A stretch of 64,000 bases of DNA, from assembly GCA_000092065.1 (NCBI GenBank), contig CP000600.1; one strand, given 5' to 3'. Below the pieces are notes generated by a model. That model was not told the origin of the DNA and ran no database searches. It worked only from the letters and a program-made list of their open reading frames with translations. Of the stretch, positions 56,848-60,915 are shown one piece after another (position 1 is the first letter of the stretch; each line of letters starts with the position of its first letter). A program made the position numbers and the translations under genes. The stretch is from Ostreococcus lucimarinus (taxonomy: Eukaryota).

Positions 56848-59800
56848 ATGCGTCGACGCGTCGCGAATGTCTCGCGGCATCTTAATCTCAATCTCGCGAC
56901 GCGCGCGACGCGCGGACGGGCGATCTGGACGGCTCGAGCGGATCGAGACGACCGCGCGGATGTCGCGGCGCGAACGGGGGGGCGGGACGCGGCGGGAGAG
57001 ACGTCGGGGCGCGAGGGGGTGGAGGTGGACGCGGGGACGGCGGCGAGGCGGACGACGAACGGCGTGCGAGCGCCGTTCGAACCCTCGGGAGATCAGCCGA
57101 GCGCGATCGAGCGGTGCAAGGAGCTGCTGAGCGATCGCGATAGGAAGTTTGTGTGCCTGAGGGGGGCGACGGGGACCGGGAAGACGTACGTCGTGGCGAA
57201 CGTGTTGGCGGCGCAGCGAAAGCCGGCGCTCGTGGTGGTGCCGAATAAGACGCTCGCGGCGCAAGTCGCGCGCGAACTTCGGGCGTATCTGGGCGAGAGT
57301 CACCGGGTGGAGCTGTTTGTGTCGCATTTCTCGGTGTACGTGCCGGAGTCGTACTCCAATGGGCGGTACACGGAGAAGCGAAGCGCGATTGATTCTGATC
57401 TGGACGCGTTGCGGCATCGAGCGACGCGAGCGCTCGTTGAACCTGGGAAGACGCCCGTCGTCGTCGCGAGCGTGAGTTGCCTGTATGGTTTGGGGTTACC
57501 GACGGATTACGTAGATGCGGCGCTGACGATCGAGATCGGGGCCTCGGCGTCGACATTCGGCATCGACGGCGTCGAGGATAAGCTTCGCGACGATTTACTG
57601 TACGAGCGCGTGATGCCGTACATGGATATTGAGCGCGGTCAATACAAAACTACCGCCGCACCTGACGACGACAACTGCTTCACCATCACTATTTGGCCGC
57701 CATATTTGGAAAGTGCGTTGGACGTACGAGTTCGAGGCGACGACGGCGTCGTCGTCGCGTGTGAAGCGCGCGGACGCCGGGTCGATTTACCGCTCACGAT
57801 TTGGCCGCGCGTGCACTACATCACCCCGGCCGAGCGCCTGCAACGCGCGCTCGTGAGCATCAAGGCTGAACTGGACGAACAAACGAAGAAGCTTCGCGCC
57901 GAGGGGTGCGCGATCGAGGCTGATAGACTGGAGCAGAGAACCAACGCCGACTTGACCTTGCTGCGAGAGCTCGGTTGGTGCCCAGGCGCCGAGCACTACA
58001 GCCGTCATTTACGCTGCGCAAAGCCCGAAGAGCCGCCGGTGACGCTTCTGGATTACTTTTCATACTCAGCGGACTCCCAAACGCGTCGCGACTGGTTATT
58101 GGTCGCCGACGAATCTCACGTCATGCTGCCGCAACTTCGCGCGATGCACGGCGGCGACAGAAGCCGTAAAACGGCGCTCGTGGGCGCCGGTTATCGTCTG
58201 CCATCGGCGTTGGACAATCGTCCACTCATGAGCGAAGAATTCTGGCAGCGTGTCCCGCAGGCACTGCTCGTGAGCGCGACTCCGGGCGATATTGAGACGG
58301 AATGGGTCGGCGGCAAGTCGAGCGATGCCATGGTTGACATGGTCGTGCGACCGAGCGGCGTGCTCGATCCGCCGGTGCACGTCGTAGGCAAAGAGAATCA
58401 ACTCGAAGCGTTGGCACAGCGAGTGAATGAGAAAGCTAAGATTGGCGAACGCTCGCTGGTGTGCGTGCTCACCAAGGCGGACACCGAGGATCTGTCGATG
58501 TACTTGAACGCGCACGGCGTGCGCGCCGATTGGGTGCACTCAGAGCTCACTGCCCCGCAACGTGCCGAAAAACTGTCCAAGCTTCAACAAGGCGAACTAG
58601 ATTGTATCGTGGGTGCGCAGCTTCTGCGCGAAGGCTTGGATCTACCTTCAGTGTCGCTCGTCGCCATTTTAGATGCGGATATTCCTGGTTTCATGCGAAG
58701 CGCGCGCTCGTTGATGCAGATGGCTGGCCGGGCGGCGCGGAACAAGAACGGCGAATGCGTGCTCTTTGCGGATTCCATCACCGCCGCCATGAAAGAGATG
58801 ATGAATGAGGTCGATCGTCGTCGCGTGAAACAACACAAGCACAATGTCGACAACAATCTCGTTCCGGTGACGGCGACGTTGGGGTCTTCGACGTCGACGC
58901 TCTCTCTCTTCGACGTCATGGCGGATGAGATCGAACTTGAGAAGCAAAAGTGGGCCGTAGAACAGTCCGCTGCGCTCACGTCGCCGAAGAGTGCTGAAGT
59001 AGACACGGAAGCCGTCGATAAAGCGCTCCGAAGTTGGCGAAAGCGACGAGAAGGCGGCGGCGTACGGCCGGGTCCGAAACCGTCAGACGCGCTCAAAGAA
59101 GTGCAGGTGGAGGAGGGCGAAAAACTCGTCGCCGAGACTGTGTTAGATGCGTATGGGCTCGATGCGACGCATGTCGAGCGACTCAGGCGTTTACATCGCG
59201 ATATGCCATCGAAAACAGGAGTGTATCGATGGATCGATGAGGCTGGCAACGTGCTTTACGTCGGCAAGGCGAAGAATTTGCGCTCGCGGACTGGGCACTA
59301 TCTGTCGCCCGCATTGATACAGTCATCGCCGCGACATCGAAAGCTCTTAGCCTCAGCACGCACTCTCGATGCTGTGCTGACGCCAGGCGGCGAAGCCGAT
59401 GCGCTTGCGCTCGAAGCGAGATTAATTCAGCGCGAGCGTCCAGCGTTGAACATTTTGCTGAAGGATGCGCCGAAGCCCGAAAGCGCGCGAATCGTTTTGA
59501 CATCGAGGGATGCCGACGGGCGTATTTTCGTGGCTAAGTTTCAAAATGAGTTCGACCCCACCAGAGCCGAGAAAGTGTGGACTCTCCCCACTCGCGAAGC
59601 AGCAATTCGTATGATGGCTGTTCTCGAACGTGCGCTCGATTTGCGCGGCGTTTCGTTTCGCTCGCGTTTCGGCGAAACCGCCGCCGTCGCGCAGTGGCGC
59701 TTCGCCGCGGAAGTCGCGACTTTGGTACTCGATGCCAAGTATGACGAAGCGGTCGCGGCACTGGAAGACCGTGGTGAAGTTGCGTCGGCGCTTGAGTTGC

Positions 59801-60915
59801 GAATATCCGCCCAAGAAGAAGCCGAGCGAGGCCAGGGCGCTCGCGGTTCGCTCGCTGCGCTCCTGCAAGCGGACTCCGCGGCAAAGCAATGGAACATGGA
59901 TGTCATCGCTGCCGCGAGCAGTGGTGGTGCGACATGTGCGGTAAAGATCGTTAAAGTGCGCGACGGTACAATAGTTGACGTCTACGGTACGAGTGTGGAT
60001 GTGCCGAATGCCACAGCGGACGACGCCATCGCCGAGGCCACTCTAGCCGAAGCCGCACAGCTCGTCGCCGAGCAGATGTACTTGAGCGAATTCTCCGATC
60101 GCCCGGACATGGTGTACATCCCGCACACTATCGCAGAACCGATGAACTTACGCGCAGCGCTTCGTCACACCGGCGTCGGCGCCAACGCGACGAAGAAGAG
60201 TAAGGTCTTGCACCACGGTGCCGCCAAGGAAGGATCGCTCCTCGAGGCGCTCGCGGAAATGGCACTCGAGAACGCCGACGAATCCGCGCGCGCAACGGCG
60301 GTGAAATCCGCCGCGGCGCTTCGCTTAAAGGACGCCATCGGACTCGATGAGTCCCCCACGAGCATCGAAGGCGTGGACGTTTCTCATCTCGCCGGCCAGA
60401 ACGCTGTGACGAGCTTTGTTCGATTCGAGGGAGGTTCGCCGGCGCCGCTCAAGCATCGCCGATACCAGCTCAGTGAAGCCGTAACACCAAGCGACGACTA
60501 TGGTGGTATCGCTGAGTCAATAACCGCGCGCTTGGCGTCCAAGAGCAAACTTCCGGACGTCTTTCTCATCGACGGTGGAGTCGGCCAACTCACCGCGGCG
60601 GCGCACGCGCTTCGCGAAGGCGGCGTCGTCATCTCAAACATGATCGACGACGACAACACCCCGATCGCCGATTCCAGCGCAAAGGCACATCGAACCGTTG
60701 CCTTGTGCGCGCTCGCCAAGGGCCGAAGCAGCGGTGAAGAGGCTCTATGGGTCCCCGCGCTCTCGCCCGGAGGCGTCGTCATGGGCCGAAAAGTCGACGA
60801 CGCCCACCTTGACGCGCTAAAACTTCTCCGTTCGGTGCGCGACAGCGCCCACGCCGTGGCGCTCGGCGCGCATCGTTCTTTACGTCGCGAAGAGCGACTA
60901 AACGCCTTCGCTTAG
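56848..60915 (+). CDS. Fused bacterial-type nucleotide-excision-repair protein: UvrB (helicase) N-terminal two-thirds plus UvrC (GIY-YIG / endonuclease) C-terminal part, with organelle-type presequence
   Basis: UvrB part: FEPSGDQPSAIERCKELL, Walker A GATGTGKTYVVANV, VPNKTLAAQVARELRAYLGESHRVELFVSHFSVYVPESY, DSDLDALRHRATRALVE, VVVASVSCLYGLG. Helicase domain 3: LTKADTEDLSMYLNAHGVRADWVHSELTAPQRAEKL...GAQLLREGLDLPSVSLVAILDADIPGFMRSARSLMQMAGRAARNKNGECVLFAD. UvrC part: GIY-YIG (KTGVYRWIDEAGNVLYVGKAKNLRSRTGHYL), then IEGVDVSHLAGQNAVTSFVRFEGGSPAPLKHRRYQL ... LPDVFLIDGGVGQLTAA. One continuous ORF. Start taken at ATG about 56848 (MRRRVANVSRHLNLNLATRATRG). An alternative upstream ATG at 56686 sits in the CCATGG mirror of the THUMPD1 start. 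Confidence 0.85.
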   Translation: MRRRVANVSRHLNLNLATRATRGRAIWTARADRDDRADVAARTGGRDAAGETSGREGVEVDAGTAARRTTNGVRAPFEPSGDQPSAIERCKELLSDRDRKFVCLRGATGTGKTYVVANVLAAQRKPALVVVPNKTLAAQVARELRAYLGESHRVELFVSHFSVYVPESYSNGRYTEKRSAIDSDLDALRHRATRALVEPGKTPVVVASVSCLYGLGLPTDYVDAALTIEIGASASTFGIDGVEDKLRDDLLYERVMPYMDIERGQYKTTAAPDDDNCFTITIWPPYLESALDVRVRGDDGVVVACEARGRRVDLPLTIWPRVHYITPAERLQRALVSIKAELDEQTKKLRAEGCAIEADRLEQRTNADLTLLRELGWCPGAEHYSRHLRCAKPEEPPVTLLDYFSYSADSQTRRDWLLVADESHVMLPQLRAMHGGDRSRKTALVGAGYRLPSALDNRPLMSEEFWQRVPQALLVSATPGDIETEWVGGKSSDAMVDMVVRPSGVLDPPVHVVGKENQLEALAQRVNEKAKIGERSLVCVLTKADTEDLSMYLNAHGVRADWVHSELTAPQRAEKLSKLQQGELDCIVGAQLLREGLDLPSVSLVAILDADIPGFMRSARSLMQMAGRAARNKNGECVLFADSITAAMKEMMNEVDRRRVKQHKHNVDNNLVPVTATLGSSTSTLSLFDVMADEIELEKQKWAVEQSAALTSPKSAEVDTEAVDKALRSWRKRREGGGVRPGPKPSDALKEVQVEEGEKLVAETVLDAYGLDATHVERLRRLHRDMPSKTGVYRWIDEAGNVLYVGKAKNLRSRTGHYLSPALIQSSPRHRKLLASARTLDAVLTPGGEADALALEARLIQRERPALNILLKDAPKPESARIVLTSRDADGRIFVAKFQNEFDPTRAEKVWTLPTREAAIRMMAVLERALDLRGVSFRSRFGETAAVAQWRFAAEVATLVLDAKYDEAVAALEDRGEVASALELRISAQEEAERGQGARGSLAALLQADSAAKQWNMDVIAAASSGGATCAVKIVKVRDGTIVDVYGTSVDVPNATADDAIAEATLAEAAQLVAEQMYLSEFSDRPDMVYIPHTIAEPMNLRAALRHTGVGANATKKSKVLHHGAAKEGSLLEALAEMALENADESARATAVKSAAALRLKDAIGLDESPTSIEGVDVSHLAGQNAVTSFVRFEGGSPAPLKHRRYQLSEAVTPSDDYGGIAESITARLASKSKLPDVFLIDGGVGQLTAAAHALREGGVVISNMIDDDNTPIADSSAKAHRTVALCALAKGRSSGEEALWVPALSPGGVVMGRKVDDAHLDALKLLRSVRDSAHAVALGAHRSLRREERLNAFA

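What the first reader, a model, noticed from the sequence alone, without database searches (positions are those of the whole stretch)
56848..60915. Single-ORF UvrB–UvrC fusion (bacterial-type excision repair) in a eukaryotic nuclear context
One continuous reading frame encodes the UvrB helicase and the UvrC dual-incision nuclease back to back. The UvrB part has the damage-recognition/ATPase domains 1a/1b and helicase domain 3, with Walker A GATGTGKT and the conserved VSHFSVYVPESY and VASVSCLYGLG blocks. The UvrC part has the GIY-YIG module plus the C-terminal IEGVDVSH / LIDGGVGQL region. In bacteria these are separate polypeptides that need UvrA. Here the N-terminus looks like an organelle presequence (MRRRVANVSRHLNLNLATRATRG). 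The gene is flanked by ordinary eukaryotic genes (THUMPD1, ADSL) with the same codon bias, so contamination is unlikely. No UvrA-like ORF is in the window. The UvrB C-terminal UVR coiled-coil that normally contacts UvrC appears replaced by a direct covalent linker.
Basis: partly seen in the sequence, partly recalled or inferred. Interest (0 to 1): 0.8.

Follow-up and report, generated by a model that had tools for sequence, protein, structure and literature searches.

The report
Single-chain UvrB–UvrC repair enzyme, algal
A nuclear gene of the tiny green alga Ostreococcus lucimarinus really does encode the bacterial DNA-damage helicase UvrB and the cutting enzyme UvrC as one protein with an organelle-type leader; the same fusion exists in many algae, which suggests that algal organelles keep a trimmed-down bacterial excision-repair system that reviews say eukaryotes lack.

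Summary
Window 56848-60915 (+) is one uninterrupted 1355-codon gene. Residues 73-685 are a full UvrB fold. Residues 781-1355 are a UvrC with both nuclease sites intact. The window is Ostreococcus lucimarinus CCE9901, whose public gene model stops at residue 690 and so misses the UvrC half.

The continuous ORF recurs in independent assemblies. The same fusion is found in other Mamiellales, Pycnococcus, Rhodosorus and, on full-length models, many diatoms and a bolidophyte. Complete diatom transcripts also carry it.

Four things are lost relative to bacteria:
- both UVR docking motifs
- UvrC's Cys-rich (FeS) motif
- UvrC's (HhH)2 domain
- the conserved UvrA-binding residues of UvrB domain 2, although its fold is kept

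All catalytic residues are invariant in 67 fusions. Non-synonymous change is low except in the leader. Diatom orthologues carry plastid-type bipartite leaders.

Best reading: an organelle-targeted (probably plastid), single-chain excinuclease in which the covalent tether replaces UVR docking, and which may work without UvrA. Whether UvrA exists elsewhere in the genome could not be tested. Cyanobacterial ancestry is unresolved.

No paper in the searchable library describes this fusion, though databases hold the sequences. I rate it a new variant of a known kind.

The parts
56688..56847 (.). 160-bp divergent intergenic region between the upstream minus-strand gene and the fusion gene; presumed shared promoter region
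   Evidence: Gene calls on the near-identical independent contig L005 place a 321-aa minus-strand gene and the 1355-aa gene 160 bp apart. ORF list. The promoter role is inferred.
56848..60915 (+). Complete intronless CDS (1355 codons plus stop) of the UvrB-UvrC fusion
   Evidence: Residues 1-690 are 100% identical to O. lucimarinus XP_001422505.1. The same continuous ORF occurs in Logan contig L005, with 10 nt differences, and in a JGI metagenome protein, P0127.
56848..57063 (+). N-terminal extension (aa 1-72): putative organelle targeting presequence
   Evidence: It lies before UvrB profile position 4. The first 30 aa (P0001 copy) hold 9 R/K and 0 D/E. pN 0.48 against pS 0.52 versus another Ostreococcus species, while the mature part has pN 0.09-0.15. 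The N-terminus of the model has low pLDDT. No dedicated predictor was available.
57064..58902 (+). UvrB module (aa 73-685): domains 1a, 1b, 2 and 3
   Evidence: NCBIfam UvrB E=2.5e-179. PDB UvrB E=3e-138. AlphaFold2 pLDDT 87.6 and pTM 0.83. Foldseek against UvrB 6o8e/3uwx_B gives target-normalised TM 0.92 and rmsd 2.3-2.5 A.
57163..57186 (+). Walker A GATGTGKT (K112 = E. coli K45)
   Evidence: Invariant in 104 aligned sequences.
57316..57378 (+). Beta-hairpin (aa 157-177), FVSHFSVYVPESY--SNGRYTEK. Y164 (= Y96) is kept; Y92H, Y93F and Y95V are substituted; the tip is 2 aa shorter than in bacteria
   Evidence: Alignment with 18 bacterial and 20 algal UvrBs; residue mapping.
57517..57807 (+). UvrB domain 2 (aa 224-320). 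The fold is kept, the bacterial UvrA-contact residues are lost, and an algal-specific invariant WPP sits at aa 283-285
   Evidence: No PF17757 hit at E<=1, against 113-116 bits in the controls. Only 40% of columns that are >=90% conserved in bacteria are retained, against 73-84% in the other domains (hairpin 61%). pLDDT is about 95. WPP is nearly invariant.
58108..58119 (+). Walker B DESH (aa 421-424)
   Evidence: invariant.
58903..59187 (+). Linker (aa 686-780). A conserved amphipathic helix SLFDVMADEIE continues the UvrB C-terminal region, and a Mamiellales-specific helical segment follows. It occupies the place of UvrB domain 4 (UVR)
   Evidence: hhalign matches only the first 22 columns, to the bacterial UvrB post-PF12344 region, and finds no UVR match. 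Linker length measured from 45 residues past helicase motif VI (GRAARN) to the GIY-YIG start is 55-195 aa across fusions, a wider span than aa 686-780. pN is 0.12. Helices have pLDDT 40-76.
59215..59439 (+). GIY-YIG 3'-incision nuclease domain (aa 790-864). Y793, Y804, R814 (= E. coli R42), E856 and N868 are kept
   Evidence: Pfam. 1yd6/1ycz sequence hits. Foldseek against 1ycz gives target-normalised TM 0.91 and rmsd 1.3 A. These residues are invariant in 67 fusions. Alignment with E. coli UvrC.
59485..59826 (+). UvrC beta-sheet motif plus helical bundle (aa 880-993). The Cys-rich (FeS) motif is deleted and no UVR consensus remains
   Evidence: hhalign to bacterial UvrC 93-235 gives probability 99.3%, with the Cys-rich segment missing. 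There are no Cys in the region. Four predicted helices. Domain names follow PMC10085695.
59893..60285 (+). Central RNase H-like domain (RNase H1) of UvrC (aa 1016-1146)
   Evidence: PF22920 E=3.6e-6; AlphaFold2 pLDDT about 90.
60331..60861 (+). C-terminal RNase H endonuclease domain (5' incision), aa 1162-1338. D1177 (= E. coli D399), DD1216-1217, D1242 (= D466) and H1335 (= H538) are kept. The protein ends 17 aa later and has no (HhH)2
   Evidence: PF08459 E=4e-25. 8b0q and 2nrt by sequence and by fold. Residues are invariant in 67 fusions. Alignment with E. coli UvrC shows residues 555-610 have no counterpart.

Best explanation
This is a functional nuclear gene of Ostreococcus lucimarinus. 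It encodes an organelle-targeted, most likely plastid-targeted, single-chain bacterial-type excision nuclease.

Proposed mechanism:
1. After import, the roughly 70-aa leader is removed.
2. The UvrB module is an ATP-driven translocase with a beta-hairpin. It engages and verifies a lesion in organelle DNA.
3. The covalently tethered UvrC module cuts the damaged strand on the 3' side with its GIY-YIG site.
4. It then cuts on the 5' side with its RNase H-like DDH site.

The tether makes the UVR-UVR docking of separate UvrB and UvrC unnecessary, so both UVR motifs have gone. UvrC's (HhH)2 domain and FeS motif have also gone.

Two features suggest loading without UvrA, as described for E. coli UvrBC complexes. 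The autoinhibitory domain 4 is absent, and the UvrA-contact residues of domain 2 are not conserved.

Shown here: the gene, its architecture, the intact catalytic sites, constraint on the protein sequence, and its wide occurrence in algae.

Inferred: organelle localisation (about 0.75), plastid rather than mitochondrion (about 0.6), dual incision activity (about 0.7), and independence from UvrA (about 0.5).
For: Architecture and folds.

Catalytic residues: those of both nucleases are invariant in 67 fusions. The helicase motifs and the Y96 equivalent are invariant or nearly so in 104 sequences.

Constraint: against another Ostreococcus species, pN is 0.09 (UvrB), 0.12 (linker) and 0.15 (UvrC) with pS about 0.72-0.77 (saturated). 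In the leader, pN is 0.48 and pS 0.52.

Continuity: the continuous ORF appears in independent assemblies and in complete MMETSP transcripts of diatom orthologues.

Loss of UVR, UvrB_inter and HhH, with positive controls.

Domain 2: bacterium-to-bacterium identity is 0.50, but alga-to-alga is 0.26 and alga-to-bacterium 0.21. R183, D185, R194, G197, D198, R213, E215, F217, D219 and E220 (E. coli numbering) are not conserved.

Natural control: unfused algal UvrBs (Cyanidiococcus, Porphyridium, Agarophyton) keep the UVR motif, whereas no fused protein lists it.

Targeting: 25 of 62 non-Mamiellales orthologues with an N-terminal extension of >=45 aa (mostly diatom-like) have a signal-peptide core followed by [ASG]-F, against 6.5 expected from shuffles. 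This is the diatom plastid signature.

Precedents from the literature:
- UvrBC recognises lesions without UvrA (PMC5814901).
- Domain 4 autoinhibits UvrB and is relieved by UvrA (PMC7835731).
- UvrC lacking (HhH)2 still makes dual incisions, with weaker 5' cutting (PMC10085695).
Against: - No activity, localisation or transcript data exist for this species.
- The rest of the genome could not be searched for uvrA.
- Domain 2 is still a confidently folded, retained domain with a new invariant WPP motif. It may bind a co-evolved UvrA or another loader.
- The hairpin has lost three of four conserved tyrosines in Mamiellales and is 2 aa shorter, so damage verification may differ.
- Green-algal transit and mitochondrial presequences cannot be told apart here.
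- The diatom signal rule is crude.
- Scores fall below NCBI's equivalog cut-offs: UvrB 598 against 743, and UvrC 178 against 285.
Confidence: 0.65

Rival explanations
1. It is a canonical UvrA-dependent system with B and C merely fused. A nuclear-encoded, organelle-targeted UvrA lies elsewhere in the genome and loads the fusion through a co-evolved domain 2 surface.
For: Domain 2 is retained in every fusion, folds with pLDDT about 95, and carries a new invariant WPP motif. Pycnococcus still scores 38 bits for UvrB_inter. Some unfused red-algal UvrBs keep both UvrB_inter and UVR, which suggests a fuller Uvr system existed in algae.
Against: The bacterially conserved residues of domain 2, including R183, R194, R213 and E215, are replaced by variable residues across all fused lineages rather than by a new common set. 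The UvrA-relieved autoinhibitory domain 4 is absent. No paper found mentions UvrA in these algae, though that library is limited.
Confidence: 0.25
2. The protein has been put to a job other than excision of bulky lesions in organelle DNA. Possibilities include nuclear repair, ribonucleotide or R-loop processing, or organelle DNA turnover or recombination.
For: The hairpin aromatic residues are partly replaced and the hairpin is shortened in Mamiellales. Several canonical modules are lost. Related algal proteins show other nuclease-helicase arrangements, such as RNase H domain-UvrB-HRDC in Prymnesium.
Against: Both incision sites, all helicase motifs and the key hairpin residue Y96 are invariant or nearly so. 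This is the constraint expected for the dual-incision reaction. The N-terminal leaders argue against a nuclear role.
Confidence: 0.08
3. It is an artefact: bacterial contamination, misassembly, or two adjacent genes read through because a stop or frameshift was missed.
For: The NCBI model for this locus covers only residues 1-690 and is flagged partial.
Against: The identical continuous ORF is present in independent Logan and JGI assemblies. Fused orthologues exist in dozens of species and in complete transcripts. Synteny with eukaryotic genes is conserved. Codon usage matches the neighbours. The linker also shows low non-synonymous change. No fused protein of bacterial type appears among the best 150 of 1.84 billion representatives.
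Confidence: 0.02

Closest known systems
Bacterial UvrB and UvrC (the UvrBC incision complex of UvrABC nucleotide excision repair)
   Same: The full UvrB fold matches (target-normalised TM 0.92), with helicase motifs I-VI and a beta-hairpin. The UvrC GIY-YIG domain, beta-motif, helical bundle, RNase H1 domain and RNase H2 domain with the DDH triad are all present.
   Different: It is one polypeptide encoded in a eukaryotic nucleus with a targeting leader. It has no UVR in either half, no Cys-rich/FeS motif, no (HhH)2, and a degenerate UvrA-contact surface. Identity to bacterial proteins is only 42-45% for UvrB and 26-30% for UvrC. Scores fall below the equivalog cut-offs.
UvrA-independent UvrBC lesion recognition in E. 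coli, and the domain-4-less UvrB* form
   Same: These give a functional precedent. UvrB plus UvrC can find UV damage without UvrA (PMC5814901). Domain 4 is an autoinhibitory gate relieved by UvrA (PMC7835731). The algal protein naturally lacks domain 4 and is permanently joined to UvrC.
   Different: In E. coli this is a minor back-up route of separate proteins. Here it would be the only architecture. It is untested.
Deinococcus radiodurans UvrC lacking (HhH)2 (engineered deletion)
   Same: The truncation shows that UvrC without (HhH)2 still binds DNA and UvrB and still makes dual incisions (PMC10085695). The algal UvrC half ends at the equivalent point.
   Different: The engineered form has reduced 5' incision and still carries the FeS and UVR motifs. 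The algal form lacks these as well.
Other algal UvrB homologues
   Same: These are the closest relatives of the UvrB half in a 93-sequence tree. They are nuclear-encoded and have long N-terminal extensions.
   Different: Cyanidiococcus, Porphyridium and Agarophyton have unfused UvrB with the UVR motif retained. Prymnesium has RNase H nuclease-UvrB-HRDC, and Aureoumbra has RNase H nuclease-UvrB; both lack GIY-YIG.
Plant 'uvrB/uvrC motif' protein (AT2G03390) cited as a sign of plastid NER
   Same: It shares the name, and it has been used to argue for excision repair in plastids (PMC4824065).
   Different: The plant protein carries only the short UVR motif plus a YccV-like domain, with no helicase or nuclease. 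The algal protein is the reverse: real UvrB and UvrC enzymes without the UVR motif.
Cho (UvrC homologue, 3' incision only)
   Same: It shares the GIY-YIG domain (NF007833, E=2e-9).
   Different: Cho lacks the RNase H 5' nuclease. The score is 37 bits against a cut-off of 367, so this protein is not a Cho.

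Membership tests
UvrB (NF003673 / TIGR00631) | Superfamily-2 helicase motifs: Walker A GxGKT, Walker B DESH, motif III SAT, motif V, motif VI QxxGRAxR | tested here: met
   GATGTGKT 106-113, DESH 421-424, SATPG 476-480, LLREGLDLP 592-600, QMAGRAARN 624-632. 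Invariant in 104 sequences.
UvrB (NF003673 / TIGR00631) | Beta-hairpin with conserved aromatic residues between domains 1a and 1b | tested here: met
   The hairpin is present at aa 157-177. Y164 (= Y96), Y169 and Y174 are kept. Y92H, Y93F and Y95V are substituted and the tip is 2 aa shorter, a Mamiellales-specific change.
UvrB (NF003673 / TIGR00631) | Domain 2 with the conserved UvrA-binding surface (Pfam UvrB_inter) | tested here: not met
   No PF17757 hit at E<=1, against 113-116 bits in E. coli and cyanobacterial controls. Conserved R183, R194, R213, E215 and others are not retained. The fold itself is retained.
UvrB (NF003673 / TIGR00631) | C-terminal UVR domain (domain 4) that binds UvrC | tested here: not met
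   No PF02151 hit at E<=1. A profile comparison of the linker with bacterial UvrB C-termini matches only the pre-UVR segment.
UvrB (NF003673 / TIGR00631) | Curated whole-protein score cut-off | tested here: not met
   597.8 bits against a cut-off of 743; 587.7 against 750.1.
UvrC (TIGR00194) | GIY-YIG catalytic residues (Tyr, Tyr, Arg, Glu, Asn) | tested here: met
   Y793, Y804, R814, E856 and N868 are invariant in 67 fusions. The fold matches 1ycz with target-normalised TM 0.91.
UvrC (TIGR00194) | Cys-rich (FeS-binding) motif after the beta-sheet motif | tested here: not met
   The segment equivalent to E. coli C154-C178 is replaced or deleted and holds no Cys.
UvrC (TIGR00194) | UVR motif (UvrB-binding helices) | tested here: not met
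   No PF02151 hit, against 39.9 bits in E. coli UvrC. The helical bundle is still predicted, but the consensus is gone.
UvrC (TIGR00194) | Central RNase H-like domain and C-terminal RNase H endonuclease with the DDH triad | tested here: met
   PF22920 and PF08459 hits. D1177, D1242 and H1335 are invariant. Foldseek matches 8b0q and 2nrt.
UvrC (TIGR00194) | [quoted passage not shown] | tested here: not met
   The protein ends 17 aa after the nuclease domain. There is no HHH hit, against 41.9 bits in E. coli UvrC. E. coli residues 555-610 have no counterpart.
UvrC (TIGR00194) | Curated whole-protein score cut-off | tested here: not met
   177.7 bits against a cut-off of 285.45.
UvrABC excinuclease system | A UvrA partner that loads UvrB | not testable with these tools
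   There is none in the 64-kb window.
UvrABC excinuclease system | UvrB and UvrC as separate polypeptides joined by UVR-UVR contact | tested here: not met
   A single ORF, with both UVR motifs absent.
Nuclear-encoded organelle-targeted protein | Cleavable N-terminal targeting peptide | tested here: inconclusive
   A 72-aa basic, acid-poor, fast-evolving extension. Diatom orthologues show a signal peptide plus an A/S/G-F motif in 25 of 62 cases, against 6.5 expected. No TargetP, PredAlgo or ASAFind was available.
Cho (NF007833) | GIY-YIG with a Cho C-terminal domain and no 5' nuclease | tested here: not met
   36.9 bits against a cut-off of 367. An RNase H 5' nuclease is present.

The most novel reading that the evidence does not exclude
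Many algae (Mamiellales, Pycnococcus, some red algae, diatoms, bolidophytes and probably cryptophytes) repair their plastid DNA with a minimal bacterial-type nucleotide excision system. It would consist of a single imported polypeptide that needs no UvrA. This would be the first organellar NER machinery identified in eukaryotes, and a natural proof that UvrB-UvrC alone can find and excise lesions.
Probability: 0.4. Interest if true: 0.8.

Novelty: new variant of a known kind. Interest (0 to 1): 0.65.

Why it matters
Recent papers state that eukaryotes lack UvrABC genes (PMC11228841). They also state that NER seems absent from organelles (PMC6981420). A 2006 census of GIY-YIG nucleases lists no eukaryotic UvrC (PMC1564403).

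A conserved, probably plastid-targeted UvrB-UvrC enzyme in ecologically dominant phytoplankton would change that picture. It would give a concrete candidate for dark repair of UV damage in plastid DNA, and it could help explain differences in plastid mutation rate.

It also offers enzymologists a naturally streamlined excinuclease with no UvrA surface, UVR, FeS or HhH. That makes it a test of which parts of the bacterial machine are essential.

Ostreococcus tauri and Phaeodactylum can be transformed (my own knowledge, not checked here), so the question could be tested directly.

On a practical level, the reference annotation of O. lucimarinus truncates this gene.

Tried and rejected
1. Cyanobacterial origin. 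A 38-sequence NJ tree put the algal clade with Cyanobacteria plus Sericytochromatia at 89.5% bootstrap. After adding 55 unnamed representatives from the exhaustive search, the relation was recovered in 0 of 100 replicates. Only other algal UvrBs were then close. I treat the origin as unresolved. NJ, long branches and biased sampling all limit this test.

2. Origin of the UvrC half. The best bacterial hits are only 26-30% identical, and the named ones are mostly Acidobacteria. This is probably a composition or word-filter effect. No tree was attempted.

3. P0089 looked like an unusually close unfused UvrB at 608 bits. It is a bacterial UvrB with an internal duplication on a bacterial contig. 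I discarded it.

4. dN/dS against the near-identical contig L005 rests on only 10 differences and is uninformative. Against L006, synonymous sites are saturated, so only pN and pS are quoted.

None found a description of the algal fusion or of an algal UvrA. The library is open-access only, so an absence there is weak evidence.

6. A remnant UVR in the linker or in the UvrC helical bundle was tested by profile-profile alignment and not found.

7. A bacterial UvrB-UvrC fusion as precursor was looked for. None appears among the best 150 representatives, and every fused hit scores far better with the algal UvrC profile than with the bacterial one.

8. The THUMPD1 identity of the upstream gene was checked. 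There is no Pfam or PDB support.

9. Full-length structure prediction was not possible because of the 1200-aa limit, and no PAE or coordinates are returned. Contacts between the two halves could not be examined.

Full report
**Observation**

The plus strand is open from 55705 to 60915, and the ATG at 56848 starts a 1355-codon ORF.

Pfam finds six families:
- ResIII/DEAD (aa 80-155)
- Helicase_C (520-632)
- UvrB PF12344 (639-675)
- GIY-YIG (790-864)
- UvrC_RNaseH (1016-1146)
- UvrC_RNaseH_dom (1162-1338)

NCBIfam aligns aa 73-685 to positions 4-595 of the 653-position UvrB model (E=2.5e-179). It aligns the C-terminal half to uvrC (E=3.9e-52). Both scores are below the curated equivalog cut-offs.

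PDB sequence search gives UvrB 2fdc at E=3e-138, together with the UvrC fragments 8b0q, 2nrt and 1yd6.

Two AlphaFold2 models were built:
- UvrB half: pLDDT 87.6, pTM 0.83. It superposes on solved UvrB with target-normalised TM 0.92.
- Linker plus UvrC half: pLDDT 86.7, pTM 0.72. It superposes on the UvrC GIY-YIG domain (TM 0.91) and on the RNase H endonuclease domains (TM 0.55-0.80).

**Whose gene it is, and whether the fusion is real**

Residues 1-690 are 100% identical to XP_001422505.1 of Ostreococcus lucimarinus CCE9901. That entry is a 'predicted protein, partial', so the public model stops at the end of the UvrB half.

Several lines show the fusion is real:
- The continuous 1355-aa ORF recurs in an independent Logan assembly, with 10 nucleotide differences and no stop or frameshift. 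It also recurs in JGI metagenome proteins.
- In another Ostreococcus species (79% identity) the fused gene sits in the same eukaryotic neighbourhood: Slu7, proteasome PSD13, ribosomal S18, prefoldin, then the fusion, ADSL and an RNA polymerase largest subunit.
- Codon usage matches the neighbours, with RSCU r=0.93.
- ADSL, the RNA polymerase fragment and an FKBP are confirmed in the window.

**Distribution**

Fused orthologues exist in several algal groups:
- Other Ostreococcus species (79-83% identity, plus a 66% relative), Bathycoccus (48%) and longer, unnamed relatives of 1600-1790 aa that fall in the Mamiellales clade of the tree.
- Pycnococcus provasolii (XRB01906.1, named 'exonuclease uvrABC').
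- The red alga Rhodosorus, in a shorter form.
- Many diatoms and the bolidophyte Triparma.
- Guillardia, where only a partial 623-aa UvrB-type model is available, so the fusion itself is not shown.

MMETSP transcripts flagged complete carry the fused ORF in diatoms.

In an exhaustive search of 1.84 billion representatives, every fused hit belonged to this algal type. No bacterial fusion was seen.

The closest relatives of the UvrB half are other algal UvrBs with different layouts:
- Unfused UvrB that retains the UVR motif in Cyanidiococcus, Porphyridium and Agarophyton.
- An RNase H nuclease-UvrB(-HRDC) arrangement in Prymnesium and Aureoumbra.

**What is kept**

- Helicase motifs I-VI are invariant in 104 sequences.
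- The hairpin is present with the Y96 equivalent (Y164). In Mamiellales, Y92, Y93 and Y95 are H, F and V, and the tip is two residues shorter.
- In the UvrC half, the GIY-YIG residues are invariant in 67 fusions: Y793, Y804, R814 (= E. coli R42), E856 and N868. So are the 5' nuclease residues D1177 (= D399), DD1216-1217, D1242 (= D466) and H1335 (= H538).
- Against the 79%-identical orthologue, synonymous sites are saturated (pS 0.72-0.77). pN is 0.09 in UvrB, 0.12 in the linker and 0.15 in UvrC. In the leader, pN is 0.48 and pS is 0.52.

**What is lost**

No UVR, UvrB_inter or HhH family is detected even at E<=1. The same scan finds them clearly in E. coli UvrB/UvrC, and finds UvrB_inter and UVR in a cyanobacterial UvrB.

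- Linker: profile-profile comparison shows that it only continues the UvrB region preceding the UVR domain.
- UvrC middle region: it matches bacterial UvrC 93-235, but the Cys-rich (FeS) segment is deleted and the UVR consensus is gone. A helical bundle is still predicted (domain names from PMC10085695).
- C-terminus: the protein ends 17 residues after the RNase H endonuclease domain, where E. coli UvrC continues with (HhH)2.
- Domain 2: it still folds with pLDDT about 95. Identity is 0.50 among bacteria, 0.26 among algae and 0.21 between the two groups. Only 40% of bacterially conserved columns are retained, against 73-84% in the other domains (hairpin 61%).
- Domain 2 residues: those lost include R183, R194, R213 and E215. 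From my own knowledge of Truglio et al. 2004, these are UvrA-interaction residues. All fusions have gained an invariant WPP motif.

**Targeting**

The 72-aa extension is basic, acid-poor and fast-evolving.

Among the 62 non-Mamiellales orthologues with an N-terminal extension of >=45 aa (mostly diatom-like), many start with a short hydrophobic core followed by A/S/G-F, as in ...RRCVAFSPL and ...RRVASFYAV. A crude rule finds this in 25 of 62 sequences, against 6.5 expected from shuffles.

From established knowledge, this is the signal-peptide plus 'ASAFAP' signature of diatom plastid import. I therefore favour plastid targeting. That step is inferred.

**Mechanism**

The covalent tether replaces UVR-UVR recruitment. 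The natural control supports this: unfused algal UvrBs keep the UVR motif, and fused ones never list it.

Three published results make a UvrA-independent, dual-incision single chain plausible:
- Domain 4 autoinhibits UvrB until UvrA relieves it (PMC7835731).
- UvrBC complexes recognise UV damage without UvrA (PMC5814901).
- UvrC lacking (HhH)2 keeps dual incision (PMC10085695).

The main rival is a co-evolved UvrA encoded elsewhere. The window has none, but that says nothing about the genome, and I could not search the genome.

**Origin**

A small NJ tree placed the algal clade with Cyanobacteriota at 89.5% bootstrap. The signal vanished with broader sampling. The UvrC half is too divergent to place. 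The origin is unresolved.

**Novelty**

The sequences are in public databases under names such as 'excinuclease ABC subunit B'. None of ten full-text searches found a paper describing the fusion. Current papers state that eukaryotes lack UvrABC and that organelles lack NER. The plant 'uvrB/C' gene discussed for plastids is only a UVR-motif protein.

I classify this as a new variant of a known kind, with moderate to high interest.

Noticed in passing
Related proteins P0522 (Prymnesium parvum KAL1510864.1) and P0536 (Aureoumbra lagunensis A0A6S7ZQC5): These show a different nuclease-helicase fusion. A UvrC-type RNase H endonuclease domain sits at the N-terminus, followed by a full UvrB. Prymnesium also has a C-terminal HRDC domain. 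Neither has GIY-YIG. They are the nearest sister branches of the UvrB-UvrC fusion clade.
   Followed up: partly
Related proteins P0517/P0651 (Cyanidiococcus), P0539 (Porphyridium), P0556 (Agarophyton): Red algae encode unfused UvrB with N-terminal extensions of 150-385 aa. They keep the UVR motif, and two of them also keep UvrB_inter. This suggests a more complete Uvr system in some algae. The content of the extensions is unknown.
   Followed up: partly
window 57694-57702 (aa 283-285): An invariant 'WPP' motif occurs in domain 2 of all algal fusions, where bacteria have (F/V)P(A/S). It is a gained conserved feature on the domain that lost its UvrA-contact residues, and may mark a new interface.
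   Followed up: no
window 56848-58917: The NCBI gene model XP_001422505.1 covers only aa 1-690 and is flagged partial. The reference annotation of O. lucimarinus therefore misses the UvrC half of this gene.
   Followed up: yes
window 55722-56687 (-): A 321-aa ORF is conserved next to the fusion gene in two other assemblies, but has no Pfam or PDB sequence match.
   Followed up: partly
Related proteins P0040, P0049 and P0493 (Rhodosorus type): These are shorter fusions of about 1070-1140 aa, including a complete MMETSP transcript. They lack the central RNase H1 domain of UvrC but keep the GIY-YIG and C-terminal nuclease domains.
   Followed up: no
window 62624-63997 (-): This is the C-terminus of an RNA polymerase largest subunit, with a long acidic, Ser/Asp/Glu-rich insertion. 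GC drops to 0.52 here, against about 0.62 for the window as a whole.
   Followed up: no
L004 (metagenome contig ERZ27258587 k141_926336): This bacterial UvrB of 899 aa has an internal duplication of domains 2 and 1b. It is probably an assembly artefact, and it inflated its score in two searches.
   Followed up: yes
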